This document shows positions 16,741 to 36,767 of a stretch of 64,000 nt of DNA, in pieces; the stretch's first letter is position 1, and each line of letters begins with the position of its first letter. The notes under the pieces were generated by a model. That model did not search any database and was not told the origin of the DNA. It was given only the letters and a program-made list of their open reading frames with translations. Made by a program: the position numbers and the translations under genes. This DNA comes from an uncultured bacterium (GTDB taxonomy: Bacteria; Actinomycetota; Acidimicrobiia; Acidimicrobiales; VFJN01): NCBI GenBank assembly GCA_963717085.1, contig CAVQVM010000019.1, positions 137,397 through 201,396 of the forward strand. Reading direction: 5' to 3'.

Positions 16741-16741
16741 C

Positions 16742-18747: not shown

Positions 18748-18769
18748 TCGAGCCACGGGGATCGGGGCC

Positions 18770-18783
18770 TCTCGTCGGGAGGC
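18770..18783. repeat. Putative attL core (direct repeat)
   Basis: TCTCGTCGGGAGGC is identical to 36691-36704. It lies 23 nt after the RTX-like stop codon. Confidence 0.65.
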
Positions 18784-18810
18784 ACCCATAAGCCTCTCAC
18801 CAGGGAAAAC

Positions 18811-18848
18811 GGGCCGCTGTGAGCCACAGATGTGAGCCACAGCGGCCC
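18811..18848. repeat. Island left-end repeat: 2 x TGTGAGCCA inside an 11-bp-stem hairpin (possible arm-type recombinase site)
   Basis: GGGCCGCTGTGAGCCACAGATGTGAGCCACAGCGGCCC. The TGTGAGCC motif also occurs twice at 36586-36606 next to the integrase start. Confidence 0.5.
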
Positions 18849-18895
18849 GGCGGTGCGCGAACACCCCCGGGCCCGGACACGGAGGCAGAAGCTCC

Positions 18896-19261
18896 ATGCC
18901 AGACCCAGAATCCCACGACGACGACCGGTGGAACGACACCACCGACCCGACCGGGCAAATCCGGTTCTTCAAGGCCCGCCGGGCCGAAGGGATGTCGCTC
19001 CGCGACGCCAAGGCTCGGTGGGCCGCCGAACACTCGCAGGACCCGCAGGCCCAGCCCGCGGTAGGCGACATGCTCGTGGCGGAGGTCGACGCCCTCGTCG
19101 CCTACGCCACCGCTCTCCTCGACGAGGTGCGGGCGGTGACCGAGCAGCTCGAGCCCGAACGGGCGAGAGCGTGCCGGACCGCCATCATCCTTGCGAGGAC
19201 CGGGGTCGACGAGATTCGGCTACGGGCCCACGCCCGCCCCCTCGACGAACCCGAACCGTAG
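18896..19261 (+). CDS. Hypothetical protein (island)
   Basis: 121-aa ORF preceded by GGAGG. I recognised no family. Confidence 0.4.
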   Translation: MPDPESHDDDRWNDTTDPTGQIRFFKARRAEGMSLRDAKARWAAEHSQDPQAQPAVGDMLVAEVDALVAYATALLDEVRAVTEQLEPERARACRTAIILARTGVDEIRLRAHARPLDEPEP

Positions 19262-19321
19262 CGAGAGGATGTGTCTCGCTTGCCGCCCCCTCGGCCTACC
19301 GGGTCGGGGGGCGGCGCCGCG

Positions 19322-19573
19322 TCAGGGTGACTCTGTCCGGTCTCCGGTGAGCCAGCGGTACAGCGGTCGGAGTCCCTGCGCGTAGGCCAGCACGAACATC
19401 TCCGACGTGAAGGCGAGCAGTGCGCCGAACACCGGCGGCGCTACGCACGCCCCCACAACCGCGGCCAGCGAAGCCAGCACCAGGCCGCCGTCGTTCACCC
19501 ACGCCGTCACGAACGCCAACACGGCGCCACCCGCGGCCAAGGTCCACCAGTAGCGTCTGTCGCTCCAAGTCAT
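19322..19573 (-). CDS. Small membrane protein (island)
   Basis: ATG at 19573 gives MTWSDRRYWWTLAAGGAVLAFVTAWV...VVGACVAPPVFGALLAFTSEMFVLAY, with 2-3 TM segments. Confidence 0.5.
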   Translation of the reverse strand: MTWSDRRYWWTLAAGGAVLAFVTAWVNDGGLVLASLAAVVGACVAPPVFGALLAFTSEMFVLAYAQGLRPLYRWLTGDRTESP

Positions 19574-19778
19574 CGCCCCCGCCCCCTTCGACGCGGGCAG
19601 GCTAGACGGCGGCGACCCGGCGCCGCTGATACTCGGGCCGGGGCGGTTCCGCGTCCGTCGTCCACCGCGATGCTCTACGAACGAATGTTCGAGGATTGTC
19701 TGAGCGTCAGCTCCACAGGAGAAGGTCGGGACCACGGCGGCGAAATCCGTCCACTGGCGCGAGAACCTCCGCTACGAG

Positions 19779-20403
19779 ATGAGCAAGGCACTCGCCACCG
19801 GCTGCACCCTCGAGCACCTAGCCGCGGTGACCGGGTTCGATCACCAGACCATCGAACGGCTGCGGCACGACGATCTCTGCACCGGTGCTGGCCAGCGTCG
19901 TCGCCGCGTCCGTCGCTCAGATCAAGCTCCTCAACGGCGAGATTGCCCGGCTCGAGCGCGACGGTCGCGACGCGCTCGCCGCGCACCCCAAGGCCGCGCT
20001 GCTCGAGGAACTCCCACGAGTCGCCAACGTCAGCCTGGCTCAGCTCATCGCCGAGATCGGCCCGCTGCTGGAACGCTGCGACAACGCCGAACAGGTAGCG
20101 GCCATGTGCGGCGCCGCCCCCGTGACTCGGGCGTCGGGAAAGACCCGCACCGTCGGTTTCCGCTACGCCGCCAACAAGCCCGCCCGGGTCGCCATCACCG
20201 GCTTCGCCGACAACTCCCGGCACTCCTCGGCCTGGGCAGCTGAGCGTTACCGCCAAGCCCGAACCCGCGGTGCTCGCCACCCCCACGCCGTGCGGGTCGT
20301 GGCCCGAGGCTGGATCCGTGTCATCTGGGCCTGGTGGCACACCGGCACCGCGTACACCCCGTCACGACACCGCGGCGAACAGCTCGCAACAGCGATGACT
20401 TGA
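19779..20403 (+). pseudogene. IS110-family transposase remnant (C-terminal half, frame-disrupted, no DEDD N-terminal domain)
   Basis: ...LPRVANVSLAQLIAEIGPLLERCDNAEQVAAMCGAAPVTRASGKTRTVGFRYAANKPARVAI... matches the C-terminal (Transposase_20-type) region. The upstream part lies in a different frame. Confidence 0.7.
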
Positions 20404-20409
20404 CCTAGA

Positions 20410-20472
20410 GAACTCAAACGCTACGTCGCCCGCGAGCTCTACTACCGGCTCCCACCACAACCACTGGCTTGA
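20410..20472 (+). pseudogene. Isolated transposase C-terminal tail fragment
   Basis: ELKRYVARELYYRLPPQPLA* is the typical extreme C-terminus of IS110-type transposases, but nothing precedes it. Confidence 0.45.
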
Positions 20473-21609
20473 CACCACCTAGGAGCATCAATCGGGGCGG
20501 GGCACCTCGGTTCCCATGATCCGCGTGGCGACCCATGCACACCGGTACGCCGGATCGCGAACCAAATCTCGCTAGGCGCCCGTATTGATCGGTGAAGCGG
20601 CGATCCGTCTGGATCGCCCACTCTCAAGACAAGGACGACCATCATGCAACGAGTTCTTCGTGCTCCCATCTTCTGGATCTCTGTCGCAGTCGTCGCCGCG
20701 GCTGTGGTGATCCTCGCTCTCACCATGGGCGGTGGCGCCGCCGGCGGTGGGGTCGGCTACTGATAGGTGCCATCTTGTGGTCCATCACCGAGACCGTTGG
20801 CCGCTGCCGGGCGAGCAGTGGAGCACCAGATCGGGCGCTGGGCTCAGTCGGTGAAAGCAACATGCGCCTCGATCGAGACGGCCAGGTCGGGGAGGGCATG
20901 TGGAGCGGTTGTCGGCTTTGGAGCTGGAACGGATTGCGGAGCTGCTGGCTGAAGACGCGCCGTTCTGGCGGCTGCGTCAGGAGGTGCCGCGGTCGCGGTA
21001 TGCGATCTATCGGGCGGTGAAACGGTTGCGGCGTCCGCCGCCGCCGGAGCCGAACCGCTCGGCGCTGCGGCTGTCGCTGGCTGAACGCGAGGAAATCTCC
21101 CGGGGTGTGGCGGCGGGCGAGTCGCTTCGGGTGATCGCCGGTCGGTTGGGCCGGGCACCGTCCACGGTGTCACGCGAGGTTGCTCGCAACGGGGGCCGGG
21201 GCAGCTATCGGGCGCGCCGGGCGGATCGGGCGGCGGTTCGGAACATGCGCCGCCCCAAGGTCGCCAAGCTCACCCAGTGTCCACGGCTGCGGATGGTTGT
21301 CGAAGCCAAGCTCGAGCTGCGCTGGTCGCCGCAGCAGATCGCGAGTTGGCTGGTCTTGGAGTTCCCCGACGACGCGGAGATGCGGGTGGCGCACGAGACG
21401 ATCTACCTGTCGCTGTTCGTGCAGTCCCGAGGTGCGCTGCGCAAGGAACTGACCCGCTACCTGCGGACCAAGCGCAGTGTCCGCCGTCCCGGCGGCAAGG
21501 CAGCACCCAACGGCCAGAGCCACATCCCGGCGATGGTCAACATCAGTGAGCGACCTGCCGAGGCCGCCGACCGGGCGGTGCCGGGCCACTGGGAATCTCA
21601 ATGGTGTTG

Positions 21610-22815
21610 TCAAGCTGCCTGAGCGACCGGTGGCGGGGCAGTGGTCCAGGTGCGGTTCTCGCGTAGGAGTGCCCAGAGGACGTCGACGCGTCTGCGGGCT
21701 AGGGCGATGATCGCTTGGCTGTGGGTTCGGCCGCGCTCGCGTTTCTTCAGGTAGTAGTCGCGGTTCGGTCCGGCCCGCAGCATGCTGGTTTGCGCCGAAA
21801 GGTAGAAGACGTGTCGTAGCGGTCGGCTGTAGCGCTTGGGGCGGTGCAGGTTGCCTGTGCGGCGCCCGGAGTCGTTCGGGACGGGCACCAGTCCGGCGGC
21901 AGCAGCGAGGTGGCCAGCGCTGGGGAAGGCGCGCAGGTCACCGGCGCCGACCAGCAAACAGGCACCGAGAAGTGGGCCGAAGCCGGGCATCGATTGGATG
22001 ACCGCGGCCTGGGGGTGTTGGTCGAAAGTCTCCGCGATCTGGGCGTCGAGGCTCCTGAGGCGCTCGTCCAGCGCCAGGATGTTCGCGGCGAGCTCGGCGA
22101 TGATGCTGGTGGCGAGGTCTTGGCCGGGGAGCACCGTCCTCTGGGCACGGGCAGCAGCGATGGCTCGAGCGGCGACGCCGGCGGAGTCGCGCACCTTGCG
22201 CTGGCGTAGCCATGCCGCCAGCCGCACGTGGCCGATGCGACGGATCCGGTGTGGGCTGGCATAACCGGTCAGCAGCACGAGCGCACCCTTGCGGGACGCG
22301 TAGTCGAACGCTCTTTCCAAGCCGGGGAACACGCTGGTCATCAGGTCTCGGAGCCGGTTGATCATCCGCACCCGGTCAGCGACCAGATCGGCGCGATGGC
22401 CGGTCAGCATCGCCAGGTTGCGGACCAGGTCGGTGTCTTGGTCGACCACGGCCAGGTCGCAGCGCAGGCGCACCGTCTCCGCGATCACATAGGCGTCCTT
22501 GGCATCGGTCTTGCCCTCACCGGCGTAGGCGCTGCTCATCGCGGCGACCATCCGCCCTGACGCATACCGCAGCGACTGGTCGGCCTGAGCCAGCAACGCC
22601 AACATCAGCGCCGCGGGCGCACCGATGATGTCGACCGCCCAGATGGGCTGCTCCGCCACCCCCTGCACGGTCGCGATGAGCGCAAGGATCTCGGCCTCGT
22701 CGTTCGCGACCTTGACCGATAGCAGCCTCTTGCCGTCGGCGTCGAGCGCGCACACCCAGTGGTGCGTCTTGCCGATATCCACCCCGACCCATGCCGTTTC
22801 CTGTGCTGCTGCCAC
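21610..22815 (-). CDS. IS110-family transposase/recombinase (DEDD RuvC-like N-terminal domain + Tnp C-terminal domain)
   Basis: 401 aa: WVGVDIGKTHHWVCALDADGK...MPGFGPLLGACLLVGAGDLRAFPSAGHLAAAAGLVPVPNDSGRRTGNLHRPKRYSR. Confidence 0.95.
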   Translation of the reverse strand: MAAAQETAWVGVDIGKTHHWVCALDADGKRLLSVKVANDEAEILALIATVQGVAEQPIWAVDIIGAPAALMLALLAQADQSLRYASGRMVAAMSSAYAGEGKTDAKDAYVIAETVRLRCDLAVVDQDTDLVRNLAMLTGHRADLVADRVRMINRLRDLMTSVFPGLERAFDYASRKGALVLLTGYASPHRIRRIGHVRLAAWLRQRKVRDSAGVAARAIAAARAQRTVLPGQDLATSIIAELAANILALDERLRSLDAQIAETFDQHPQAAVIQSMPGFGPLLGACLLVGAGDLRAFPSAGHLAAAAGLVPVPNDSGRRTGNLHRPKRYSRPLRHVFYLSAQTSMLRAGPNRDYYLKKRERGRTHSQAIIALARRRVDVLWALLRENRTWTTAPPPVAQAA

Positions 22816-23021
22816 GCGCTTGACCCCTTCCGGTCGGTCCCGATGTCCAGCTCACGAACCCTGCGGGCACCCCGCTGACGCATCCGTAACCAGCGACCAA
22901 GCGCACATCTCAATCAGCAGCCAGGGCACCCCGGAGGATCAGGCGGACATTCCCAGTTAGCGACCAAAGCGCAAGGCGACCTCAGCCACACCCGACCCCC
23001 CCGGGCGATCCACACCCTTAC
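22816..23021 (-). ncRNA. Candidate IS110 bridge RNA in the 5' leader
   Basis: There are two similar modules, guide-GCGCTT(T)GGTCGCT-guide...GGGGTGCCC. Module 1 guides GGTCGCCTT and ACTGGGAAT match the two target flanks. Module 2 guides ATTGAGAT and TTACGGA match the two IS ends. Confidence 0.65.
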
Positions 23022-23545
23022 GGAAGGCGACCTGCTCTACGGCCAAGGCCCCGGCGTGATCGCCACGCTGGTGGAGAGGCACAGCCGGTTCGTGATGCTC
23101 GTCGGGCTCCCCCAAGACCCACCGAGCCGACGTGGTCGCCGCCGCGCTCGCCGCCAAGATCACCGAGCTCCCCCAACAGCTACGGCGCTCGCTCACCTGG
23201 GACCAGGGCCGCGAGATGGCACAGCACGCCGTGTTCACCGTCGCTAGCGGCGTGCCCGTCTACTTCTGTGATCCCCGCAGCCCCTGGCAACGCGGCAGCA
23301 ACGAGAACACCAACGGGCTGCTGCGCCAATACCTCCCTCGCAACACCCGCCTCGGCGACCGCACCCAGACCGAACTCGACAACATCGCCGACGAGCTCAA
23401 CGGACGGCCTCGACAAACCCTCGGCTGGAAGACACCATCACAAGCACTCGACCAGGCGTTGCGATGACCCCCTGAGACCGCCGGGCAATATGCGTTGGTG
23501 TTCGGCTGGTGGCGTCCGAAGTGCTCGCCACGTTCCAAGGACCGC

Positions 23546-23884: not shown

Positions 23885-23955
23885 GCGTGCGGGCGTTTTG
23901 GCCGGCATCGCCGCGCCAGATCTGCCGCTCGGGCGCGGGTCGGCGCCGTGCGAGA

Positions 23956-24483: not shown

Positions 24484-24819
24484 GTCAGGTCGCTCGACGC
24501 CTGGGCTGGGGCCGCGAGCTGTCGAAGCGCCACCCGGCCTTCCGCTTGGGATCCCAACGCGCAACGATCACCTGATCGTCAGCTGGGCAGGGGAAGTGGA
24601 CCGCACAGATCTGCCGATCTCGCGCACGGCGTTTTGCCTCGAGCAGGCCGGCGGTCGCAGCGGCTGGTGCCGGCGACGCCCGATTTCGTCCGTTCGGGGT
24701 GATGGCAGGCCCGTGTGGTCCTGGGTCTAATGGGCACCCCAGGTGAACGAGATCGCCAACCGCGCCGACGAGGCATGGACGGCGGCCGTTCCTGGAACCC
24801 CCGTCCGGAGGAGAGTTCG

Positions 24820-25329
24820 ATGGCCAAGCCCGATGCAATGTTCATCTATATCGGCACCTACCCGAGTGAGGCAGCGGCACGAGACGACTATGCCGTGGTG
24901 CAGGATCTCCACTCGCTCGGTGCTGTCGGGAGTTACGACGCGGCTGTGGTCACCAAGGACGACGCCGGCAAGGTCCACGTCAACAAGGATGAGATGGCCA
25001 CCAGGCACGGAGCCTGGGGTGGGGCGGCCGCCGGGGCGGTTGTCGGGATCCTGTTCCCTCCCGCCATCATCGGTTCTGCGGTGGTCGGCGCGGCCGTGGG
25101 CGGCGTTGGAGGCCATTTGTGGCGCGGCCTGTCCCGCTCCGACGTCAAGGAGCTCGGCGACGTCATCGATTCTGGTGAGGCCGCGCTGCTGATCGTCGGT
25201 GAGAGCACGGTGCAGGAGGCGGTGGACAAGGCGGGGTTGAAGGCCGAGAAGCAGGTCGCCAAGGAGCTCGACGTCAGCCCCAAGGACGTCGACGCAGCGA
25301 TCCAAGAGGCGGCTGGCGAGATCACCTGA
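24820..25329 (+). CDS. DUF1269-type membrane protein
   Basis: ATG at 24820 after GGAGGAGAG. ...YDAAVVTKDDAGKVHV...GAWGGAAAGAVVGILFPPAIIGSAVVGAAVGGVGGHLW is a Gly-zipper region typical of DUF1269. Confidence 0.8.
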   Translation: MAKPDAMFIYIGTYPSEAAARDDYAVVQDLHSLGAVGSYDAAVVTKDDAGKVHVNKDEMATRHGAWGGAAAGAVVGILFPPAIIGSAVVGAAVGGVGGHLWRGLSRSDVKELGDVIDSGEAALLIVGESTVQEAVDKAGLKAEKQVAKELDVSPKDVDAAIQEAAGEIT

Positions 25330-25371
25330 CCACCGGCCCCCCTAAGCCAGCACACGGGAAGGACGGAGCCG

Positions 25372-26817
25372 ATGGCCGTCAAGTCCAGGGTCGCGCATCC
25401 GAGTGTGGAGGAACGGCGAGCGCGAGGCGAGGAGGCGCGCAGCCGGACGCCGGTGGCCAGCCATACTGGCTGGGCGGCGGCCACCGGGCGGCCTGATCCG
25501 GTGGGGTTGTTGGAGGAGCAGGACGCCGACCGGGAGCCCGACCTGGTGCCGGTCCGGCACGGGCGGATGGTGGTGTCGCCGTTCACCTTCTACCGGGGGG
25601 CGGCCAAGATCATGGCCGCCGACCTGGACGGCACGCCCGTCGCTGGCCTGCACGTGCAGCTGTGCGGGGATGCGCACCTGTCGAACTTCGGTTTGTTCGC
25701 CTCGCCCGAGCGGCGGTTGTTGTTCGATGTGAACGACTTTGACGAGACCCTGCCGGGGCCGTTCGAGTGGGACGTGAAGCGGATGGCGGCCAGCTTCACG
25801 ATCGCGGGCCGTAACAACGGCTTCGCCAAGGCCGACACCCGGGCGGCGACCCGGGCGTCGGTGCGGGCCTATCGGGAGGCGATGGCCAGCTTCGCCCAGA
25901 TGGGCAACATGGCCATCTGGTACGCGCACCTGGACGAGGACGAGCTCCAGAAGGGGCTCCGCAGCACCGCCGCCAAGGCCTCGAAATCAAAGAAGCAGGC
26001 CAAGCGGGTCGAGAAGCGGGGCGGGAAGGTGTTCGCCAAGGCGCGCACCCGTGACAGCCTGCAGGCGCTGTCCAAGCTCGGCGAGCTGGTCGACGGGCGC
26101 TACCGGATCGTCAGTCAGCCGCCGATCGTGGTCCCGGCGCGGGAGCTGGCAGCCACCTACGGCCTGTCCCGGGATGAGATCGAACACGGCCTCCACGAGC
26201 AGTTCCGCGGCTACCGGGCCACCCTGCGCGACGATCAGCGTCAGCTGCTGGAGCGGTTCGAGTTGGTCGATGTGGCCCGCAAGGTGGTGGGGGTGGGCAG
26301 CGTCGGCACTCGGGCCTTCATCGGCCTGCTTCAGGGTCGCGACCAGCACGACCCGCTGTTCCTGCAGGTCAAGGAGGCGACCGCGTCGGTTCTGGAGGGC
26401 CCCCTGCCCAAGAGCCGCTACAAGCAGCACGGCGAACGGGTGGTGTATGGGCAGCGGATGATGCAGGCCGCCAGCGATATCTATCTGGGCTGGACCAAGG
26501 GAGCCAACGACCCGACCGGCTCAAACCGTCACTTCTACTGGCGGCAGCTGCGCGACATGAAGGGCTCGGTCGAGGTCGAGTCGATGGCCCCGGTTGGCCT
26601 CGGCTTCTATGCCGGAATCTGCGGCTGGACCCTGGCCCGGGCCCACGCCCGATCCGGCGACCCGGTCGCGATCGCCGCCTACCTCGGTAACGACGACCAG
26701 TTCGACCGGTCGATCAGCGACTTCTCCCAGCTCTACGCCGACCAGAACGAACTCGACTACCAGGCCTTCGCCAACGCCATCCGATCCGGACGCCTGGAAG
26801 CCCTCGAAGGCGTCTGA
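25372..26817 (+). CDS. DUF2252 domain protein
   Basis: 481 aa: LVPVRHGRMVVSPFTFYRGAAKIMAADL...GDAHLSNFGLFASPERRLLFDVNDFDETLPGPFEWDVKR. Confidence 0.9.
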   Translation: MAVKSRVAHPSVEERRARGEEARSRTPVASHTGWAAATGRPDPVGLLEEQDADREPDLVPVRHGRMVVSPFTFYRGAAKIMAADLDGTPVAGLHVQLCGDAHLSNFGLFASPERRLLFDVNDFDETLPGPFEWDVKRMAASFTIAGRNNGFAKADTRAATRASVRAYREAMASFAQMGNMAIWYAHLDEDELQKGLRSTAAKASKSKKQAKRVEKRGGKVFAKARTRDSLQALSKLGELVDGRYRIVSQPPIVVPARELAATYGLSRDEIEHGLHEQFRGYRATLRDDQRQLLERFELVDVARKVVGVGSVGTRAFIGLLQGRDQHDPLFLQVKEATASVLEGPLPKSRYKQHGERVVYGQRMMQAASDIYLGWTKGANDPTGSNRHFYWRQLRDMKGSVEVESMAPVGLGFYAGICGWTLARAHARSGDPVAIAAYLGNDDQFDRSISDFSQLYADQNELDYQAFANAIRSGRLEALEGV

Positions 26818-27813: not shown

Positions 27814-27965
27814 GTCCGGCGCGTGCAGTCGCCCAACACGCGACGTGCCCGACGGAACGCCGAACTGCCGATCTCGCGCCCCCGTCGTTCAGTGCTGACG
27901 ATCCGCCGGGCGAGGGGTGCACGGTGCGGCAATCGGTGCGCGCCCGTGCCACCGACCCGGCGGTA

Positions 27966-28017
27966 GGTGGCAGTCGGCGGTCAGGTCTCGGGTGGCAGTC
28001 GGCGGTCAGGTCTCGGG
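27966..28017. repeat. 25-bp tandem duplication (2.1 copies) spanning the methyltransferase stop codon
   Basis: ggtggcagtcggcggtcaggtctcg occurs at 27966-27990 and 27991-28015. Confidence 0.9.
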
Positions 28018-28875: not shown

Positions 28876-28950
28876 GCCTACGAACGAATTCCATTCCGGC
28901 CATCGAGCGAGCTGGGGAAGGGTTCACGAGCATCACGGGTTGTGACATGC

Positions 28951-29403
28951 ATGACCTCCGATCTCGAGGCCAGGGTCCGCCGACTCGAGGATCGAGTTCT
29001 GATCAGTGACCGGGTCATCAGCTATGCGGTCTCGGTCGACCAGCGCGACTGGGTTCGGTTCGCTGACTGCTTCACCGATCCGGTGCACGCCGACTACTCC
29101 GAGAACGGGCTGCCGGCCGCCGACTTCGCTCGGGACGATCTCGTCGACATCGTCCGCTCGGCCGTCAGCGGCTACACGGCCACACAACACCTCAGCGCCA
29201 ACCACGTCACCGACTTCGATCTCGATGATCCCGACCGGGCAACCTGCCACTCATCGATGTACGCGCAGCACCATCTCGCCGACGGCGAGGAGCTGCTCAT
29301 CCTGCGCGGCTGGTACGCCAACCACCTGGTCCGTGTTGCGAACGGATGGAAGATCGACCGGATCGTCCAACACGTGAGCTGGCGCGAGGTCAGACGTCCA
29401 TGA
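28951..29403 (+). CDS. SnoaL-like/NTF2-fold protein
   Basis: ATG at 28951: LEARVRRLEDRVLISDRVISYAVSVDQRDWVRFADCFTD...HLSANHV. Confidence 0.8.
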   Translation: MTSDLEARVRRLEDRVLISDRVISYAVSVDQRDWVRFADCFTDPVHADYSENGLPAADFARDDLVDIVRSAVSGYTATQHLSANHVTDFDLDDPDRATCHSSMYAQHHLADGEELLILRGWYANHLVRVANGWKIDRIVQHVSWREVRRP

Positions 29404-29435
29404 CCGACGGTCTCGACCGATGAGAGGACGGCGAC

Positions 29436-29795
29436 ATGGATGAAGGAGCTTCTCCGACGAGCACCGAGCCCGACGTGCGGGCGGTGATCGATCGCTATCT
29501 CCGAGCCCACGATCGGCGTGACACCGACGCGGCGCTCTCGACGTTCGCCGCCAACGCAATCGTGGTCGATGATGGCCAGCGGTACGCCGGCCCCGATCGC
29601 ATACGCGACTGGCTGGCCAATGCGTCGACGGAGTTCAGCTACACACGGACGTTCACCGGTGCCGACGCCGTGGACGCCGACACCTGGCTCGTCACGAACC
29701 GGCTCGAAGGCGACTTCCCCGGCGGGGTCGTCGATCTCGGCTACCGGTTCCGGTTGGCGGGCGATGCGATCGCGGAGCTGCTCATCGCTACCTGA
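29436..29795 (+). CDS. SnoaL-like/NTF2-fold protein
   Basis: 119 aa: VRAVIDRYLRAHDRRDTDAALSTFAANAIVVDDG. Confidence 0.8.
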   Translation: MDEGASPTSTEPDVRAVIDRYLRAHDRRDTDAALSTFAANAIVVDDGQRYAGPDRIRDWLANASTEFSYTRTFTGADAVDADTWLVTNRLEGDFPGGVVDLGYRFRLAGDAIAELLIAT

Positions 29796-29962
29796 CGCCC
29801 TGCATGCCCGAACCGCGGTTCGCTCGGTCGCGTGAACCACCTCCCAAAGCCGGCGTTGGGGGGCGTTGCTCACCGGTTGCTGTGCTTCCCTGGCCCTGCC
29901 GCGGTATCGAATCCTCCGAAACCCGCGTCGTCAGTGCGGCGTCGATGCGTACGGTCTCTGCA

Positions 29963-30352
29963 ATGGATCCTGAGTTCGCCTTGAAGTTCGCTGAGGAGTG
30001 GGAGTCGGCATGGAACTCCCACGACATCGACCGGATTCTCACTCACTACACCGACGACGTCGTCTTCCAATCGCCCTACGTCGTGCATCGCTTCCAAGAG
30101 CCGACGGGTGAGGTGCGCGGCAAGGATGCACTCCGCAACTACTGGGAATCGGGGCTCGAACAGCGGCCTGACCTTCGCTTCACAGTGGAGGACGTCCGCG
30201 TCTCGGTGGACACGCTCGTCGTCAACTATCGCAACCACCTCGGCCACGCCGTCTCCGAGGTCCTGAGGTTCAGAGACGGCCTTGTCTACTGGGGCTGCGG
30301 TGCGTACGTGCCCGGCAAGTCACTGTCAGCGACACGCAGCCTCAACCGCTGA
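29963..30352 (+). CDS. SnoaL-like/NTF2-fold protein
   Basis: ATG at 29963: FAEEWESAWNSHDIDRILTHYTDDVVFQSP. Confidence 0.8.
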   Translation: MDPEFALKFAEEWESAWNSHDIDRILTHYTDDVVFQSPYVVHRFQEPTGEVRGKDALRNYWESGLEQRPDLRFTVEDVRVSVDTLVVNYRNHLGHAVSEVLRFRDGLVYWGCGAYVPGKSLSATRSLNR

Positions 30353-30690
30353 AGCAACGGACTTGGCTGAGCGCGGCCACCTCTCACCCGGCGTTTACGG
30401 ACAGTCCCCGTCAAAGGGCCGGAGCCGTCCGTGGTCAGGACATCTTCTATCCCGAGGCCGGGTCACTCCGTGCTGCGGGTGCCGACCAGCTCGCCGTCAT
30501 TTGGCCGGGCGACAGGCGCTCCCGCTGCTAGTCCCCTGCTGATCGGTGACCCGTCGCTGGTGGAGGTGCCGGCGTGTTCAGCCGGCGAGCCCAACCTGCC
30601 GAAGCCGGCGTCGTCGCCGCCCCAGCCGCTGATCGCGGCGCCGCGATGATTTCGGCCCAGCGGCTTGCGCTCCGTGACTGGACTGAGCTC

Positions 30691-32918
30691 TTACGAGCGT
30701 GCAAGTGCGGCAGCTTCGGCGACGATGTCGTGAGCCCCGAGCGCGAGGGCGGCGTTATTGGCGAGCGAAAGTTGAGCGAGGCCACGCTCGTGATCGCGCG
30801 TGAGGAGCGAGCGCCCCCACTCGAGCCGCGTCCGTGCCGTCCAGACGGGGGCGTTCATTCGCTCGTGGATGTCGGTGGCCTGCGCGAAGGCATCGTCCGC
30901 GTGGCCCGGTCTGTCGAGTCTCGTGGCGAGCATGCCGATGTAGTGCGCCACGCTGCCGAGGCAGGTCGCGGGGGTGACGACGAGCTGGTTGCGCCAGGGT
31001 GACAGCAGTTCGTGCAGCTCGTCGACGATCTTGGGTGTTCCCGCACGCGCAGCGGCGTCAGCGACGAGCGACATCACGGTGAGCCAGAAGCCGTTGTAGG
31101 GCACGTCGGAGAAATCGCGCGCAGCCAGCCCGGTCAGGAGACGTTCGGCATCCCGCGGTTGTGGGAGGTGTGCGTAGGCGTGGCAGGCGAACGCTCGGTC
31201 GAGCGGCAGTTCGAGGGGCATCGAGGCCAGAACGCCGGCGATCTCGGTGAGACGACCTTCGTTCCACAAGATGAGGTAGAGCTGTCCGCCAAAGAGGGAG
31301 TCGGCCTCCTCGCCGGCATCCCGACCGGTCTCCAGTGCAGATCTTGCCTGGCGTTTGGCGGACGGCAAGTCACCGTGCCAGGTGAGTTGGCGGGCTTGGG
31401 TGTACTGCGCACGCCAGCGCGCCCCGCGTTGCCGAGACGGTCGGCGATCTCCGCGGCGGCGACGTCCGACTGCTCGGACTCAGCGTCGTCACCGGCCTCG
31501 AGGCATGCCATCGACCGATTGCTCAATGCTCCCCACCGGGATCTGAGATCGTCCAGTCCTGCAACCACGGCGAGGTCTTCGCAGGTGTTCGACAATCGCT
31601 CGTCGAGAGTGTCGGGTGCCTGAATTGTGGAGAAGCGCGCTGCCAGAACCTGATGCAGTGTCACGGCATCACGTGATGCGCGTGCCAGCCCGAGGGCTGT
31701 GTCGCTGAGCTTGCGGCGTTCCGCGAAGTTCGGTGATGCAACCAGCTCGGATGCGAGGACAGCGAGCACACGCGCGTGATCAGACGGCGTGCTGGCAGCC
31801 TCGAGTGCTCGACGGAGCAGTGCGACCCGCTCCGAGTCGAGCCGTGTGGTTGCGGCATCGATCTGCCGGCTTCCCGCAAGCGCGGCGCGCACCAGCATCC
31901 CGCGATCGCCGAGGTGATCTGCAAGCCGGGCGGCCGCAACACCGGTCGAGCGGCGCGCGGGATCGCCCGCGAGGTACTCGCTCTCCGCCAGCCGCACGAG
32001 CACCTCACACTCGCGCACGAGTGATCCGCCGTCGGCTCCGGCACTGGTGAGCGCCCTGCGGTAGCAGGCCGCCGCCTCGGCGGGCGCGCCCCGCCGGAAC
32101 GCCACGTCCCCTGCGCGCAGCGCATCCTCGGACGCGTTCGTGGGTGAACCAGTCGGCGCCGTCAGCCAGGGAGCGCTGAGAGCGCCCCGCCAGTCCAACG
32201 CTGGGTCTTGGGCGAGGATCGCTGCTTCGAGACGTCGGAGGGCCTCGCTCGGCTCGATGCCGAGCTGGGTGATCATCAGGTCGCGGGCCCGCTGAAACGC
32301 GCGCAGCGCCTCTGCGTGTCGCCCCGACCGGTACAGGGCGGTCATCAACAGCTTCCACCGTCGTTCCCGCAATGGTGCGTCGGCGACGCTTGCCTCGATC
32401 TCCGCTACCGCATCGAGATGCTCCCCCTGCGCGAGCAAAGCGTCCAGGCGGTCCTCGACCACGGTGCGGCAAAGCTCCGAAAGCCGAGCGATCTCACCTC
32501 GAGCGAAGGACCAGTCCCCCAGGTCCTGATAGGGCTCACCCCGCCAGAGTCGGAGGGCTTCATCGAACCTGTCGATCGCCGCTGCAGTGTGACCGACACG
32601 CGACGCCGCTCGGGCGTCGAGCGTGAGCGCCTCGAACCGTTGGGCGTCGATCTCTCCCCGAGCGACCATGAGCACGTAGCCGCCGGGCCGAGTCTCGATC
32701 ATCCCAGTCCCCAGGCTGCGGCGAAGTGCGAGCACGTGATTCTGCACGACCTTGCGGGCGCTCGCCGGAACGTCCTCGCCCCACATGGCGTCCGCGATGC
32801 GCTCGTGGTCGACGGCGTCACCGGTCGCGAACGCGAGCGCGGCGAGGGCGCGGCGACGTAATCGGGCGGGCGGGGTGTCCCATCCGCCCGCGCCGCACAC
32901 CGCGAGCGGCCCGAGCAC
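30691..32918 (-). pseudogene. SARP/AfsR-type regulator (wHTH + BTAD + TPR-like C-terminal region), frameshifted near 31430
   Basis: N-terminal ...HERIADAMWGEDVPASARKVVQNHVLALRRSL...IDAQRFE...WRGEPYQDL...LMTALYRSGRHAEALRAFQRAR. The reading frame switches between track ORFs 31134-32918 and 30691-31368. No NB-ARC P-loop is present. Confidence 0.75.
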
Positions 32919-33001
32919 ACGGCACCGGATCGTGGGCGCAGGCTAACGCAGGTCACCGCAGTTCCTGAGCGAGAGCCGCGTGAGCGGCCCTCGCTCGCTG
33001 G

Positions 33002-33286
33002 TCAGCCGTTGCAGGTGTTCACGGCGATGCTGTCAGGCGTGAGCCCCGCCTGTAGCTGCTGGATCCCGTCACCGAGACCTGGATGGCCGTCGGGCTGTTG
33101 CGCGAAGCCGGAAACGAGGTCCCCGATCGCGCCCGGGGGAGCCCCGAGGTCCCGGAGCGTATTTGCGGCCCCGCTGAACGTCGTCCCCACGCACGCCTGT
33201 ACCACCGGTTCGCTTGCGCCAGCCTCCGTCGCCAGACCGGTCAATACGCACGCTGACACCGCACCCGCAACGATCCATCGCTTCAT
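33002..33286 (-). CDS. Small secreted protein
   Basis: ATG at 33286 after AGGAGGA. Signal peptide MKRWIVAGAVSACVLTGLATEAGA. Confidence 0.7.
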   Translation of the reverse strand: MKRWIVAGAVSACVLTGLATEAGASEPVVQACVGTTFSGAANTLRDLGAPPGAIGDLVSGFAQQPDGHPGLGDGIQQLQAGLTPDSIAVNTCNG

Positions 33287-33889
33287 CTCGATCCTCCTGT
33301 GGAAGTCTTCGAAGCGAGGATGCTCGTCGACGGTCTCGCCCTGGTCTCGCGGCGTTTGGTCGACCGTCGACCGTCCGTACGAAAGCCGATCGGCATCACC
33401 ACACGGCGAAGCGGTAGCCCGAAAGTGCCGATCGGGGACGCTCGCAATCGTGAGCAAGCCAGTCTGACCGGTCGCCGCTGTCGCGCCAGATCTGCAGCGC
33501 GATGTCGAGGGATCGGAGGCGGTCGCACCACGACAGGGGGACTTCGACCTTACGAGGAAGGGACTTTCTCCTCTATTTCGTCACTGACGGTGGCAAAACC
33601 ATCCCTGATGCCTTACGATGTAAGGCGTCAGGGACCCGGGTCGGGCGCTTTCGCCTTTCGGGTCCCAGCGGCGGGCCTCTCAACCCTGTGTGCCCGGCCG
33701 CGCTCGGCCCCTCGACGTAGTGGGCCGAGCGGGGCTGGCGCAGTTGGGGGCGGTGGTGCCGAAGGGCGATGGCAAGGCGGGCACGGGCGGACAGGCCGCG
33801 CGGTTCGAGGTTCGATCCCTCGCGGTGCCACTCCAAGGAAGTACCCGTCCCTCCTGCAAACGCGCCCCGCTGGGCGCAGAAGGAAACAA

Positions 33890-34630
33890 GTGAGTCCCCG
33901 CACAACTACCCCCGCGCAACGTTGGATCGGCCTCGGCATCGCGTTTGTGTGCATCCTGGCCATTGCTGGCGGCGTCATCCTCGCCCTCCGCAACAGCAAC
34001 GACGAGAACGACAACGCCGGCTACATCGACACGTTCCAAGACTTGGCCGCCGACGAAGGCGTCAACATCACCGACAACGAAGCCGAATGCCTCCTCAACG
34101 TCGTCGACGACTACGTCCCGGTTGACGAGTACATCGCCACCTACGCCGACGGCGGCGAAACCGACTTCTCCGACGCCGACGAAACCCAGGCAGGTCTCGC
34201 CATCATGGCGGAGTGCCCGTCGGTAGTCGGCAAGATCTTCGATGCCGATGACTCAGGCGAGTACGACGCCGGCGACCTCGACACCGCCGCCGACGACTCG
34301 GACGAGTCCGCGACGCCGCCGACAACCCTGCCGCCGACACCCCCGACAACGCTGCCGCCGACGCCCCCGACAACGCTGCCGGACGAGTCGCCGGCAACTC
34401 CACCGGCGACGACCGACCAGTCCTGCGGCGACCTGTACCAAGCCACGATCAACGCTCCCCTCGGTTCGGACGAATGGGACGCCTTCGAGGCATCTGGCTG
34501 CGATAGCTACGACGGTGACGGCATCGGCTGCGACGCCTTGTACCAAGACGCCCTCAACGCCCCTGAGGGCCCGGAAGGCGACGACGAATGGCAAGCCCTC
34601 GCCGACAACGAATGCATCGTTGGCGAGTGA
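33890..34630 (+). CDS. Membrane-anchored acidic, Pro/Thr-repeat, Cys-containing protein
   Basis: GTG at 33890. TM segment WIGLGIAFVCILAIAGGVILAL, an Asp-rich region, a PPTTLPPTPPTTLPPTPPTTLP linker, and a C-terminal region with paired Cys. Confidence 0.6.
   Translation: MSPRTTTPAQRWIGLGIAFVCILAIAGGVILALRNSNDENDNAGYIDTFQDLAADEGVNITDNEAECLLNVVDDYVPVDEYIATYADGGETDFSDADETQAGLAIMAECPSVVGKIFDADDSGEYDAGDLDTAADDSDESATPPTTLPPTPPTTLPPTPPTTLPDESPATPPATTDQSCGDLYQATINAPLGSDEWDAFEASGCDSYDGDGIGCDALYQDALNAPEGPEGDDEWQALADNECIVGE
34316..34378. repeat. 24-bp coding tandem repeat (Pro/Thr linker)
   Basis: ccgccgac[a/g]cccccgacaacgctg occurs at 34331-34354 and 34355-34378, with a shortened unit at 34316-34330. 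Confidence 0.85.
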
Positions 34631-34709
34631 GTGACGTCACGCTCACCGACGTCGCCACCCACCACGAATACCGCATCGAACCCCTACATCCCCCGAAAGC
34701 AAGGAAACA

Positions 34710-35423
34710 GTGAACGTTCAACTACCCAACGCACCCTCATCGCCGCCGCCACCACCGCCGTCGGTCGAGCCGGTCGAGCCCGAGCGGAAGCGGAGCAACA
34801 AGGCGGTGCCGGCGCTCATCATCGGCGTGTTTGTGGCCGTCGTCTTCGGCATCGCCCTGGCGGTCAGCGTCGGTGATGGCGACACCGAGAACACCCCGGT
34901 CGTGGCCGAGGACCCGGAGACCACCGAAGCCCCGGCCAGCGATGAGCTGGCGGTCAGCGATGACCCACCGGCCGCCAGCGAACCGGAGCCGCCGTCCACC
35001 ACGACGACAGCCCCGCAACCGTCGATCGTCAACGTCGGGACCACCGAATGGTACGCGTGGGAAGACGGACTTGAGGCCCAGGTCACGTCGATCGAGCAGT
35101 ACACGCCCGAGTACGACGACACGCCGACCCCGGACGTGGTCGTGACGGTCACGGTCAAGAACGGAACCGGCAAGGCATACGACGCCGTGATGTCGTCGCT
35201 GAACCTGTATGGCGGACCCAACGGCGTGCAAGCCGAAAACAGCGGGTCCTACTACGGATTCGAGGGCACCATCCCGCCGGGTGGTACGGCGACCGCCAAG
35301 TGGAGCTTCACGGTTCCGCCCGAGCACTTGGGGCAGATGAGGGTCGAGTTTGCCCCGGGCTACGGCGACGACACCTACATGAACGAGTACGAGCCGGCGT
35401 TCTTCGTTGGATCGGCGGCGTGA
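34710..35423 (+). CDS. Membrane-anchored DUF4352-like protein
   Basis: 237 aa: Pro-rich N-terminus, TM segment VPALIIGVFVAVVFGIALAV, and a C-terminal beta-rich domain ...VVVTVTVKNGTGKAYD...GTIPPGGTATAKWSFTVP. Confidence 0.7.
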   Translation: MNVQLPNAPSSPPPPPPSVEPVEPERKRSNKAVPALIIGVFVAVVFGIALAVSVGDGDTENTPVVAEDPETTEAPASDELAVSDDPPAASEPEPPSTTTTAPQPSIVNVGTTEWYAWEDGLEAQVTSIEQYTPEYDDTPTPDVVVTVTVKNGTGKAYDAVMSSLNLYGGPNGVQAENSGSYYGFEGTIPPGGTATAKWSFTVPPEHLGQMRVEFAPGYGDDTYMNEYEPAFFVGSAA

Positions 35424-35530
35424 TGACGGAGGGCTGCGCCAGCGCGGCCGCCATCCCCAACGTTGGGGAAGCGGTCACGTGCGAGAACCGCGGCGTTGAG
35501 GTCCGAAACGCCTTCAAAAAAGTTCCGCCG

Positions 35531-36586
35531 TTATGGCGATGTTGGCGTGGCCGACCGGTTGAGTCCACGGCGCATGAGGTCTCCGCGCACCCTGGCGTAG
35601 ACGTCGGCGGTGACCGAAATCGACGAGTGGCCGGCGATCGCGGAGACGACTTCGAGCGGGACGCCGTCCTCGAGCAGCAGCGTCAGCGCCGTGTGACGGG
35701 TGCTGTGGAAACGGCGGTGCTCGACCCCGGCCTCGGCCAGCAGGACGGCCCAGCGTTCACCGATGCGGCGTTCGTCGATGGGCCGCCCGTCGGCCCGGCA
35801 GAACACGTAGCCGTCGATCGAGTGCACCGCCTGAGCACGTCGGTGCTCCCGAAGTACGGCCTTGGCTTCGGGGATCAGGGGGAGCGTCCGAACGCCGGCG
35901 GCCGTCTTGGAGCGGCGGACGTGCAGCTGGTCGTCGTCGATGTCCGTCCAGCGCAGGTCGAGCAGTTCGCCGATGCGGAGCCCGTACTTGAGGGCCAGCC
36001 ACCACAGGGCGTAGAGGCCGTCACCGGCGGCGGCCTTGAGGACGGCGCCGGCCTCGCTGGCGGACATGGCGACATCGGCGCCGCCGGTCACTGGCAGCGC
36101 CCGGACGTGGTCGGCGGGGTTGTGGTCGATCATGCGGGCACCGACGGCGTAACGCAGCGCCTGGCGCAGCATCTTGAGCGTCTGGTTGACGACCCCGGGT
36201 GAGAGGCCTTGGCGGCCGAGGTCGTTGACCATCGACTGGACGTGGGTTGCCCGCAGCCTGGCGAGGCGTAGGTGGCCGATGTGGGGGTTGATGCGCAGGC
36301 GGGCACCCTGCCGGTAGGTGCGTAGGGTCTTCGGGGCGATGGTGCCGGCCTTGACCTCCTCGACCCACCAGCCGAGGTACCGCTCCACGGTGCGGTGGCG
36401 GCTGTCGTCGATGCCGGTGTGGGCGGCGCGGCGGAGCCGGTCCATCTCGGCGAGCACGTCGGCCCGGCGGCGGCGGACGATACGGGCGCGGCGCCGTTTG
36501 CCGTTGGGGTAGCGGCCGTTCTCGACCTGGCCGACCCAGTAGCCGTCGGCCCGCCGGTAGATGGAGCCTTCGCCGTGGCCTCTCAT
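35531..36586 (-). CDS. Tyrosine recombinase/phage-type integrase
   Basis: ...LALKYGLRIGELLDLRWTDID...RFHSTRHTALTLLLEDGVPLEVVSAIAGHSSISVTADVYARV (R...HxxR...Y catalytic pattern). Start at ATG 36586, or upstream at 36610. Confidence 0.9.
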   Translation of the reverse strand: MRGHGEGSIYRRADGYWVGQVENGRYPNGKRRRARIVRRRRADVLAEMDRLRRAAHTGIDDSRHRTVERYLGWWVEEVKAGTIAPKTLRTYRQGARLRINPHIGHLRLARLRATHVQSMVNDLGRQGLSPGVVNQTLKMLRQALRYAVGARMIDHNPADHVRALPVTGGADVAMSASEAGAVLKAAAGDGLYALWWLALKYGLRIGELLDLRWTDIDDDQLHVRRSKTAAGVRTLPLIPEAKAVLREHRRAQAVHSIDGYVFCRADGRPIDERRIGERWAVLLAEAGVEHRRFHSTRHTALTLLLEDGVPLEVVSAIAGHSSISVTADVYARVRGDLMRRGLNRSATPTSP

Positions 36587-36606
36587 GTGAGCCGTCCTGT
36601 GAGCCG
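36586..36606. repeat. Island right-end repeat: 2 x TGTGAGCCG at the integrase start
   Basis: TGTGAGCCGTCCTGTGAGCCG shares its motif with 18818-18839. Confidence 0.5.
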
Positions 36607-36690
36607 ACACCGTTGGACCCGTCTGTTCATGTGTGACAGGCTAGTAGGCGTAAACCAGCACATCTGGACACTCACGGACAGGTTGGCGAT

Positions 36691-36704
36691 TCTCGTCGGG
36701 AGGC
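36691..36704. repeat. Putative attR core (direct repeat)
   Basis: TCTCGTCGGGAGGC is identical to 18770-18783. It is followed by CCCGATCC, which completes the hairpin arm complementary to 18759-18766. Confidence 0.65.
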
Positions 36705-36767
36705 CCCGATCCATCGCGTCAGCGCAGACGTCGTTCTGGTTCGCCTCGCAGACCTACGCTCGACGCG

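What the first reader, a model, noticed from the sequence alone, without database searches (positions are those of the whole stretch)
18759..36712. 17.9-kb integrase island inserted into a terminator-like hairpin; the junctions rebuild the hairpin
TCTCGTCGGGAGGC occurs at 18770-18783 and at 36691-36704. A 14-mer repeat alone is not rare in GC-rich DNA. Here, though, the 8 nt after the right copy (CCCGATCC) are the exact complement of the 8 nt starting 11 nt before the left copy (GGATCGGG). Deleting the interval therefore yields the perfect hairpin GGATCGGGGCCTC-TCGTCGG-GAGGCCCCGATCC, starting about 11 nt after the RTX-like stop codon. A tyrosine integrase gene ends about 100 nt inside the right junction. 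The interior is enriched in IS elements, lower-GC spacers and broken genes. Targeting a protein-gene terminator rather than a tRNA is less usual.
Basis: seen in the sequence. Interest (0 to 1): 0.65.

Follow-up and report, generated by a model that had tools for sequence, protein, structure and literature searches.

The report
Integrase island in a palindromic hairpin site
A 17.9-kb mobile-element remnant with its own integrase was inserted by site-specific recombination into a perfect hairpin just after a gene, and a near-identical strain has the empty hairpin exactly as predicted; this is a clean but ordinary example of a known process.

Summary
TCTCGTCGGGAGGC flanks a 17,921-bp interval. 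A metagenome contig 98-99% identical to both flanks (L015) carries the uninterrupted site GGATCGGGGCCTC-TCGTCGG-GAGGCCCCGATCC between the RTX-like and GNAT genes, exactly as predicted.

The same site is empty in three more distant relatives. It is occupied by different elements with related integrases in L003, L019 and L007-9, so it is an integration hot spot.

The attL/attR identity block is 14 bp here, 7 bp in L003 and 22 bp in L019. The shared part is the 7-nt hairpin loop. The loop therefore behaves as the overlap (crossover) region and the stems as inverted core-type half-sites. This is the classical lambda-type layout.

Four TGTGAGCC repeats, two per arm, are the only copies in the window. 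They are conserved in all relatives and look like arm-type sites. The integrase is intact.

The island has none of the excisionase-like HTH_17, primase or capsid genes seen in relatives. Its interior is IS-ridden cargo, so it is probably a remodelled, non-autonomous remnant.

Terminator function of the hairpin is plausible but unproven, because there is no U-tract. Verdict: a new member of a known kind, of modest interest.

The parts
17728..18747 (+). Upstream host gene: secreted calcium-binding-repeat (RTX-like) protein. The hairpin begins 11 nt after its stop codon.
   Evidence: ORF and likely ATG start with a signal-peptide-like N-terminus. Weak HemolysinCabind match. Syntenic in L003, L014, L015, L016 and L019.
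18759..18783 (+). attL core. Host left stem GGATCGGGGCCTC (18759-18771), 7-nt loop/overlap TCGTCGG (18772-18778) and GAGGC (18779-18783). The 14-bp repeat copy is 18770-18783.
   Evidence: The left part is identical to the empty site in L015.
18784..18895 (+). P' arm of the element. Two direct TGTGAGCC repeats (18818-18825, 18831-18838) sit inside a 12-bp-stem hairpin (18810-18849).
   Evidence: The same arm sequence is present in L003 and the repeat pair in L019.
18896..19261 (+). Small helical ORF of the element backbone. Function unknown, no family match.
   Evidence: It is 68% identical over 66 aa to the attL-proximal ORF of the L003 island. No Pfam, PHROG or NCBIfam hit.
19831..23467 (.). 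IS debris. IS110 C-terminal fragment (19831-20403, +). IS30-family transposase gene split into 20855-21622 and 23096-23467 (+) by a complete IS110 copy (about 21569-23036; transposase 21610-22815, -).
   Evidence: Pfam. Plasmid BLAST hits annotated IS110 and IS30.
24715..35423 (.). Cargo genes: DUF1269 (24715-25329), DUF2252 (25372-26817), DUF4235 (27424-27813), three SnoaL-like genes (28864-29403, 29436-29795, 29804-30352), SARP/BTAD regulator (31134-32918, -), acidic-repeat ORF (33299-34630) and DUF4352/phrog_806 protein (34710-35423).
   Evidence: The DUF1269-DUF2252 pair is also IS-flanked in an unrelated context, L057.
35531..36586 (-). Tyrosine integrase, 351 aa, apparently intact.
   Evidence: Pfam Phage_integrase, Phage_int_SAM_3 and Phage_int_M. 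R204, K227, H294, R297, H320 and Y330 are invariant in the alignment with relatives. Lambda Int chains align to residues 9-232, which includes the N-terminal region.
36586..36690 (+). P arm of the element. Two direct TGTGAGCC repeats (36586-36593, 36598-36605) abut the int start codon, followed by a conserved 85-nt stretch up to the core.
   Evidence: Conserved in L003-L009, L019, L023 and L058, and as GTGAGCC pairs in phage contig L024.
36691..36712 (+). attR core. The 14-bp repeat copy is 36691-36704, with loop/overlap TCGTCGG at 36693-36699. The host right stem GAGGCCCCGATCC is 36700-36712.
   Evidence: The right part is identical to the empty site in L015 and to attR of L007-9.
36768..37280 (+). 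Downstream host gene: GNAT acetyltransferase, AAC(6')-like but below the family cut-off.
   Evidence: Pfam and NCBIfam. The exact product is on record in L023.

Best explanation
Window 18784-36704 is an integrated genetic island. Equivalently, it is 17,921 bp bounded by the two 14-bp repeats. A lambda-type (heterobivalent) tyrosine integrase encoded at its right end inserted it into a chromosomal attB.

The attB is a perfect 13-7-13 palindrome lying 11 nt downstream of the RTX-like gene. The two stems act as inverted core-type integrase half-sites, with consensus about GG(G/T)G(C/T)(C/T)TC. The 7-nt loop is the overlap region where strands are exchanged. Paired TGTGAGCC repeats on both element arms are the arm-type sites.

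The site is a hot spot used by several different elements of this integrase clade in closely related soil Actinomycetota.

The copy in the window is a remodelled remnant. It keeps an intact int, both arms and one backbone ORF. It has lost the excisionase-like and replication or packaging genes of its relatives, and it now carries IS elements and ordinary accessory genes. It probably cannot move without help in trans.

What is shown: the insertion itself, the empty site, hot-spot use, and confinement of the shared identity to the loop. What is inferred: the binding roles of the stems and the TGTGAGCC repeats, the hairpin acting as a terminator, and the present immobility.
For: 1. Repeats and rebuilt hairpin.

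2. Empty site. L015 is 98.7% and 98.1% identical to the flanks and has the predicted hairpin with the same loop. L014, L016 and L018 (85-90% identity) are also empty.

3. Hot spot.
- L003 is syntenic at 88-90% and has a roughly 5-kb island at the same site. Its int is 87% identical and it carries a capsid-gene fragment.
- L019 has a roughly 4.9-kb island with int plus HTH_17.
- L007-9 have a flank 97.5-98% identical to L015. They carry a different element (int 78%, HTH_17, Toprim/AAA_25 primase-helicase) at an identical attR.
- L023 (99.4% identical) carries the same island as the window.

4. Crossover region. The attL/attR identity block is 14 bp here, exactly the 7-nt loop in L003, and 22 bp in L019. 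The intersection is the loop. Each element's overlap equals its host's loop (TCGTCGG, TCGGCGG, TGGGTGG).

5. Arm sites. TGTGAGCC occurs only four times in the window, all within 110 nt inside the junctions and all in one orientation. The pairs are conserved in every relative. A 51-kb temperate-phage contig with a 50%-identical int has the same 2+2 layout, with about 125 nt between the pairs against 133 nt here.

6. The integrase's catalytic residues are intact.

7. Remnant status. Only int, the arms and ORF 18896-19261 match the relatives. An HTH_17 profile finds nothing in the island at E < 2, although it finds the L019 gene at 1e-18. The interior contains IS110 and IS30.
Against: - No excised circle or attP junction was found. 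There is no read-level evidence and no experimental recombination data.
- No recombination directionality factor was identified in the island.
- The stems were fixed by my search pattern. Their perfect conservation among the pattern-derived loci is therefore ascertained, not independent. Only L003 and L007-9, which were found through int, give independent support.
- The hairpin has no U-tract, and the simple terminator scan does not call it.
- The window and L023 differ by single-base indels. This suggests long-read assembly errors, so some 'broken genes' could be artefacts.
- The source organism could not be named.
Confidence: 0.85

Rival explanations
1. The island is still a self-sufficient mobile element (an integrative mobilizable island) that excises and reintegrates as a 17.9-kb unit. 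It would use an unrecognised directionality factor, for example the small ORF 18896-19261.
For: - The integrase is intact, attL and attR are intact with a 14-bp identity, and both arm-site pairs are present.
- Presence and absence are polymorphic within about 1-2% sequence divergence.
- The small ORF next to attL is conserved in L003.
Against: - There is no HTH_17/Xis homologue, primase, relaxase, transfer or packaging gene.
- The interior is dominated by IS elements and gene fragments.
- The L023 copy of int carries two indels.
Confidence: 0.25
2. The palindrome is not a transcription terminator. It would be kept only as a recombination site, or as a binding site for some host protein, and its position after the stop codon would be incidental.
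For: - There is no U-tract after the stem, and the consensus terminator scan does not report it.
- From my own knowledge, mycobacterial RNA polymerase has been reported to need a U-tract at intrinsic terminators.
- Such perfect hairpins are rare in this window, so this is not the genome's usual terminator form.
Against: - The site sits 11 nt after the stop codon of a gene that is followed by a co-directional gene.
- It is kept in species 10-15% diverged, while the rest of the 99-nt spacer drifts and the loop varies.
- It is very stable as RNA.
Confidence: 0.35
3. The island was ancestral. The empty sites would then arise by deletion through short-repeat (14-bp) recombination, not by integrase action.
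For: - Direct repeats can mediate deletions.
- int and flank divergence between the window and L003 are similar: 85% against 88-90% at the nucleotide level.
Against: - Empty sites occur in four lineages with three different loops.
- The occupants differ in content and in the length of the identity block (7, 14 and 22 bp), as expected for independent attP x attB events.
- A 7-bp repeat is too short for homologous deletion.
Confidence: 0.05
4. The insertion was made by a transposase (IS110 or IS30), and the 14-bp repeat is a target-site duplication.
For: The interval contains IS110 and IS30 sequences.
Against: - The IS copies are internal, and there are no terminal inverted repeats at the island ends.
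- The ends are instead the conserved arms of an integrase family found with the same layout in a phage.
- The repeat length varies between occupants.
Confidence: 0.02
5. The integrase recognises the site as a folded hairpin or cruciform (single-stranded or extruded DNA). This would resemble integron attC sites or the CTX-phage attP, rather than ordinary duplex DNA.
For: The attB is a perfect 13-bp-stem palindrome able to extrude.
Against: - The attP cores are only imperfect inverted repeats, 6 of 8 positions.
- Arm-type repeats and a lambda-like N-terminal region point to the duplex, intasome-type mechanism.
- The integron-integrase model scores 33 bits against a cut-off of 265.
Confidence: 0.04

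Closest known systems
Phage lambda Int / attP / attB (heterobivalent tyrosine integrases)
   Same: - It has the catalytic R-K-H-R-H-Y set.
- The lambda Int sequence match includes the N-terminal region.
- The core consists of inverted half-sites around a 7-bp overlap that is identical in both partners.
- Repeated arm-type sites lie on both arms.
- int abuts attP.
   Different: - Sequence similarity to lambda Int is only remote (E about 2e-5).
- The attB here is a perfect 13-bp-stem palindrome, whereas the lambda core repeats are imperfect.
- Arm sites are arranged 2+2.
- No Xis is present in this copy.
Actinobacterial tRNA-targeting integrases: mycobacteriophage L5-type phages and integrative plasmids of the pSAM2/SLP1 type (from my own knowledge)
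   Same: - The hosts are high-GC Actinomycetota.
- The integrase has the N-terminal GSIY..DG.W motif typical of these enzymes.
- Relatives have the gene order int-xis(HTH_17)-primase.
- The 7-nt loop flanked by a stem mimics the anticodon or T-loop geometry that tRNA-targeting integrases use.
   Different: - The target is not a tRNA or tmRNA gene. None is found in the window.
- The best annotated phage integrases are below 40% identity.
- No replication or transfer genes are present in this island.
Phage satellites and small prophage-derived islands (PICI-like elements)
   Same: Relatives of this integrase sit in 5-9-kb elements. These carry HTH_17, PrimPol or primase-helicase genes, a TerL-like gene or a capsid-gene fragment.
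   Different: The window's island has none of these modules. Satellite status of the relatives was not tested.
Mobile elements that target terminators or palindromes by other chemistries: class C group II introns, REP-targeting IS elements, Tn7 at the glmS terminator (from my own knowledge)
   Same: The insertion lies immediately after a gene, in or next to a hairpin. This avoids gene disruption.
   Different: The enzymes are entirely different. Here the hairpin sequence itself is the recombinase core site and is partly duplicated.

Membership tests
Lambda-type tyrosine integrase site-specific integration system | Tyrosine recombinase with a complete catalytic set | tested here: met
   Pfam PF00589 at 7e-25. 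R204, K227, H294, R297, H320 and Y330 are invariant across 8 homologues.
Lambda-type tyrosine integrase site-specific integration system | Core site made of inverted half-sites around a 6-8-bp overlap that is identical in attP and attB | tested here: met
   The attB is 13-7-13. The identity blocks of three independent occupants intersect on the 7-nt loop. The attP cores GGTGTTTC and GAGGCACC are imperfect inverted repeats.
Lambda-type tyrosine integrase site-specific integration system | Arm-type binding sites on the P and P' arms, plus an N-terminal arm-binding domain | tested here: inconclusive
   TGTGAGCC occurs 2+2, only at the island ends, and is conserved in all relatives and in a phage attP. 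Lambda Int aligns from residue 9. Binding itself was not tested.
Lambda-type tyrosine integrase site-specific integration system | An unoccupied attB exists in related genomes | tested here: met
   L015, L014, L016 and L018.
Lambda-type tyrosine integrase site-specific integration system | Element-encoded excisionase / directionality factor | tested here: not met
   The HTH_17 profile built from relatives finds nothing in the island at E < 2. tblastn also finds nothing.
Prophage | Virion structural, packaging and lysis genes | tested here: not met
   No such Pfam or PHROG hits were found. The only hit is phrog_806, of unknown function.
Integrative conjugative element / actinomycete AICE | Transfer (FtsK/TraB-like or relaxase/T4SS) and replication genes | tested here: not met
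   None was found among the ORFs scanned. Small or frameshifted ORFs were not exhaustively scanned.
Intrinsic (rho-independent) terminator | GC-rich hairpin shortly after a stop codon | tested here: met
   The hairpin starts 11 nt after TGA and has a 13-bp perfect stem.
Intrinsic (rho-independent) terminator | U-tract following the stem; termination activity | tested here: not met
   The stem is followed by ATCGCGTCAGCG, and the terminator scan does not report it. Activity cannot be tested with these tools.
Integron integrase / attC folded-hairpin recombination | IntI-type integrase and imperfect hairpin with extrahelical bases | tested here: not met
   TIGR02249 scores 33 bits against a cut-off of 265. 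The hairpin is perfect, with no bulges.

The most novel reading that the evidence does not exclude
A clade of actinobacterial lambda-type integrases has moved from tRNA stem-loops to protein-gene terminator palindromes as attB.

- It uses the 7-nt hairpin loop as the overlap region, in the way tRNA-targeting integrases use anticodon or T loops.
- Element and host loops co-vary between species.
- The element's P' arm supplies a look-alike half-stem plus a strong hairpin of its own, so the upstream gene keeps a 3' structure after insertion.
- Sister integrases (78-79% identity; L004, L005) use a second site about 45 nt after another gene's stop codon. This would make the clade a natural series for learning how core-site specificity is re-programmed.
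Probability: 0.3. Interest if true: 0.45.

Novelty: new member of a known kind. Interest (0 to 1): 0.3.

Why it matters
This is a fully resolved natural example. It includes attL, attR, a reconstructed attP, real empty attB sites, several alternative occupants and a phage relative, all for a tyrosine integrase whose attB is a short perfect palindrome outside any tRNA gene.

Practical value:
- It marks the island boundaries to the base for annotation.
- It offers a compact 33-bp attB and a roughly 250-bp attP that could be tried as an integration tool for high-GC Actinomycetota.
- It provides related integrases with different cores for specificity studies.

It does not change how site-specific integration is understood.

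Tried and rejected
- **Genome-collection scan.** I scanned for the core plus either flank. It gave only two chance matches, in a Desulfobacteraceae and a Myxococcota MAG, with no flank similarity.
- **Viral-contig scans.** Scans for the P-arm motif and for the P' repeat pair found nothing.
- **Exact-product look-ups.** The window's DUF2252 and enoyl-CoA hydratase proteins are not on record.
- **P0084 look-up.** It returned the same phage contig as L024.
- **L058.** The element has an int 57% identical, but its second junction could not be located. Whether more distant clade members also use hairpins remains open.
- **Second attB.** The site used by L004 and L005 could not be reconstructed, because those contigs end before attL.
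- **Literature.** Two searches gave no direct precedent or contradiction.
- **Organism name.** Cluster look-up returned no names.
- **Rejected ideas.**
  - tRNA or small-RNA target.
  - Dispersed REP-like repeat.
  - Tandem accretion through an internal att site.
  - Transposase-made duplication.
Full report
**1. The observation**

The 14-mer TCTCGTCGGGAGGC occurs at 18770-18783 and 36691-36704 and nowhere else in the window, even with one mismatch allowed. None of 100 dinucleotide-preserving shuffles gave two copies.

GGATCGGG (18759-18766) precedes the left copy. Its exact reverse complement CCCGATCC (36705-36712) follows the right copy. Removing the 17,921 bp between the repeats gives GGATCGGGGCCTC-TCGTCGG-GAGGCCCCGATCC.

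This hairpin starts 11 nt after the TGA (18745-18747) of the upstream gene. In context it folds at -42.1 kcal/mol, z = -4.3. Only two other perfect hairpins with a stem of >=10 bp and a short loop exist in the 64 kb. The sequence is not a dispersed repeat. No tRNA, tmRNA or Rfam family is present in the window.

**2. The genes**

- The upstream gene, most likely 17728-18747, encodes a secreted protein with GGxGxD calcium-binding-type repeats.
- The downstream gene, 36768-37280, is a GNAT acetyltransferase.
- A 351-aa tyrosine integrase lies on the minus strand at 35531-36586. Its start codon, not its end, is 105 nt inside the right repeat.
- Its catalytic residues R204, K227, H294, R297, H320 and Y330 are invariant in an alignment with seven homologues.
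- Full-length lambda Int aligns to residues 9-232. The similarity therefore reaches into the N-terminal region, where lambda Int has its arm-binding domain.

**3. The decisive test: empty sites**

I scanned the metagenome collection for GATCGGGGCCTC-N7-GAGGCCCCGATC and got 13 loci.

- L015 is a 2.6-kb JGI contig, 98.7% identical to the left flank and 98.1% identical to the right flank. It has the two genes adjacent, separated by exactly the predicted hairpin with the loop TCGTCGG.
- L014, L016 and L018 are 85-90% identical to the flanks. They are also empty, with loops CCGCCGG or TCGGCGG.

**4. The site is a hot spot**

Homologues of the integrase led to several other contigs.

| Locus | Relation to the window | What occupies the site |
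|---|---|---|
| L003 | syntenic, 88-90% nucleotide identity | island of about 5 kb; int 87% identical; same arm sequences; fragment of a major-capsid gene; otherwise unrelated content |
| L007, L008, L009 | chromosomal flank 97.5-98% identical to the empty-site contig L015 | another element (int 78%, HTH_17, Toprim/AAA_25 primase-helicase) joined to the GNAT side by the identical attR TCTCGTCGGGAGGCCCCGATCC |
| L019 | 84-85% nucleotide identity to the flanks | island of about 4.9 kb with int and an HTH_17 gene |
| L023 | 99.4% identical | the same island as the window |

Within about 2% sequence divergence the site therefore exists in three states: empty, filled with the 17.9-kb island, or filled with a different element.

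**5. Where the strands cross**

The sequence shared by attL and attR differs between occupants:

- 14 bp in the window;
- exactly the 7-nt loop (TCGGCGG) in L003;
- 22 bp (TCTGGGTGGGAGGCCCCGATCC) in L019.

The only part common to all three is the loop. In each case the element's loop equals that of its host species.

On the element side, the bases next to the loop are GGCGATTC, GGTGGTTT or GGTGTTTC on the left, and GAGGCACC, AAGCCACC or GAGGCCCC on the right. These form an imperfect inverted repeat related to the host stems GGGGCCTC/GAGGCCCC.

This is the standard layout of a tyrosine-recombinase core: two inverted half-sites around a 7-bp overlap that must match between the partners. I infer that the loop is the overlap region and that the inner 8 bp or so of each stem are the core-type sites. 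Cleavage positions were not determined.

**6. The arms**

TGTGAGCC occurs four times in the window, all on the plus strand.

- Two copies (36586, 36598) abut the int start.
- Two copies (18818, 18831) lie 34 nt inside attL.

The total count is not unusual for the window's composition. However, all four copies fall within about 110 nt inside the two junctions. By simple arithmetic this has a chance probability of the order of 1e-11.

The int-side pair is conserved in every relative. The second pair is conserved in L003 and L019.

A 51-kb contig carries tail, endolysin, repressor, HTH_17 and Mu-Gam genes, so it is a temperate phage. Its int is 50% identical. It has an uninterrupted attP with the same arrangement: two GTGAGCC copies next to int and two more about 125 nt further on. 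The spacing in the attP rebuilt from the window is 133 nt. These are very likely arm-type sites, but binding was not tested.

**7. What kind of element the window copy is**

Against the proteins of five related elements, the island matches only in three places: int, the arms, and the small ORF 18896-19261. That ORF is 68% identical to the attL-proximal ORF of L003.

A profile of the family's HTH_17 (excisionase-type) proteins recovers the L019 gene at 1e-18. It finds nothing in the window island. No primase, capsid, terminase, relaxase or transfer gene was found.

The interior holds:

- an IS110 fragment;
- an IS30-family transposase gene split by a complete IS110;
- a PKD fragment;
- DUF1269, DUF2252 and DUF4235 genes;
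- three SnoaL-like genes;
- a SARP regulator;
- an acidic-repeat ORF;
- a DUF4352 protein.

DUF2252 has thousands of homologues above 80% identity. In another contig the DUF1269-DUF2252 pair is again flanked by IS110, IS30 and ISL3 sequences.

GC is 67.7% in the island against 70.6% and 71.6% in the flanks. There is no internal att-like site that would indicate tandem accretion.

The simplest reading is a small phage- or satellite-derived element whose interior was replaced by IS-borne cargo. It retains a working-looking integrase and intact att sites. Whether it can still excise is open, for example with a directionality factor from a co-resident relative.

**8. Is the hairpin a terminator?**

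For:
- Its position, 11 nt after a stop codon and followed by a co-directional gene.
- Its stability.
- Its retention across species while the rest of the 99-nt spacer and the loop change.

Against:
- There is no U-tract, and the consensus scan does not call it.
- Stem conservation among the pattern-derived loci was imposed by my query. Only L003 and L007-9 are independent of that query.

After insertion, attL keeps a weakened version of the hairpin, because the element's right half-site GAGGCACCCAT resembles GAGGCCCCGAT. A strong element hairpin follows at 18810-18849. The upstream gene therefore still ends in structured RNA. This could be a by-product of core-site similarity rather than an adaptation.

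**9. Comparison with what is known**

The system works like lambda Int and the actinobacterial phage and plasmid integrases. The best annotated phage integrases are below 40% identical, and plasmid-borne ones are about 30-34% identical.

From my own knowledge, tRNA-targeting integrases commonly cross over in the 7-nt anticodon or T loops, with the flanking stems providing symmetry. The present attB has the same geometry in a non-tRNA hairpin.

Insertion next to terminators is known for other kinds of mobile element that use different enzymes. Two literature searches found no paper describing this particular site or clade.

I therefore class it as a new member of a known kind.

**10. Caveats**

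It is a soil-metagenome Actinomycetota by GC content, gene content and one named homologue.
- Single-base indels between the window and L023 suggest long-read assembly errors. Frameshifts should be read with care.
- No read-level or experimental evidence for excision is available.

Noticed in passing
window 35924-36690 compared with L023 9157-9922: The window and the 99.4%-identical contig L023 differ by about 6% only in the 5' two-thirds of int and the P arm. The rest of int is 100% identical and the flanks about 99.8%. The divergent tract stops right at the att core. L023 also has two indels that break int. This looks like replacement of the int-proximal segment by recombination with a third, unsampled element, bounded on one side by the crossover site.
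   Followed up: partly
window 21569-23036 within 20855-23467: A complete IS110-family element is inserted into an IS30-family transposase gene. The HTH_38 part lies upstream and the rve part downstream.
   Followed up: partly
window about 42155: The window lacks about 1.2 kb carrying MarR and SnoaL-like genes. These are present at this point in L023 (99% identical) and in L003. It is a clean deletion or indel polymorphism unrelated to the island.
   Followed up: no
window 15828-16713: An extra ORF (15858-16745, 295 aa, no Pfam match) lies between the thiolase-like and enoyl-CoA hydratase genes. It is absent from the syntenic relative L003.
   Followed up: no
window 27966-28015: There is a perfect tandem duplication of a 25-mer (GGTGGCAGTCGGCGGTCAGGTCTCG x2) inside the island.
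   Followed up: no
L004 1-240; L005 3880-4010: Integrases 78-79% identical to the window's are joined to a different chromosomal sequence (TCAGGTAGTA[G/C]GTCCCGGCC). In L005 this lies about 45 nt after the stop codon of a T2SSE/CpaF-like ATPase gene. It is a second target of the clade, again just downstream of a gene. The other junction was not available.
   Followed up: partly
window 27311, 29856, 33865, 35516, 37862, 40128 compared with L023: There are isolated single-base indels between two otherwise near-identical assemblies. This is typical of long-read consensus errors. Some apparent frameshifts in either record may be artefacts.
   Followed up: no
window 36768-37280: The GNAT gene next to the site matches the Streptomyces-type aminoglycoside 6'-N-acetyltransferase model at 1.5e-50. 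The score is 171 bits, below the 250-bit cut-off.
   Followed up: no
L010-L013, L020-L022; L017: The same 12-bp stems (GATCGGGGCCTC/GAGGCCCCGATC) occur with the loop CCATGGC/GCCATGG in an unrelated, recurrent metagenome locus, and with the loop CCGGTGG in L017. Neither shows flank similarity to the window. These are probably independent GC-rich hairpins.
   Followed up: no
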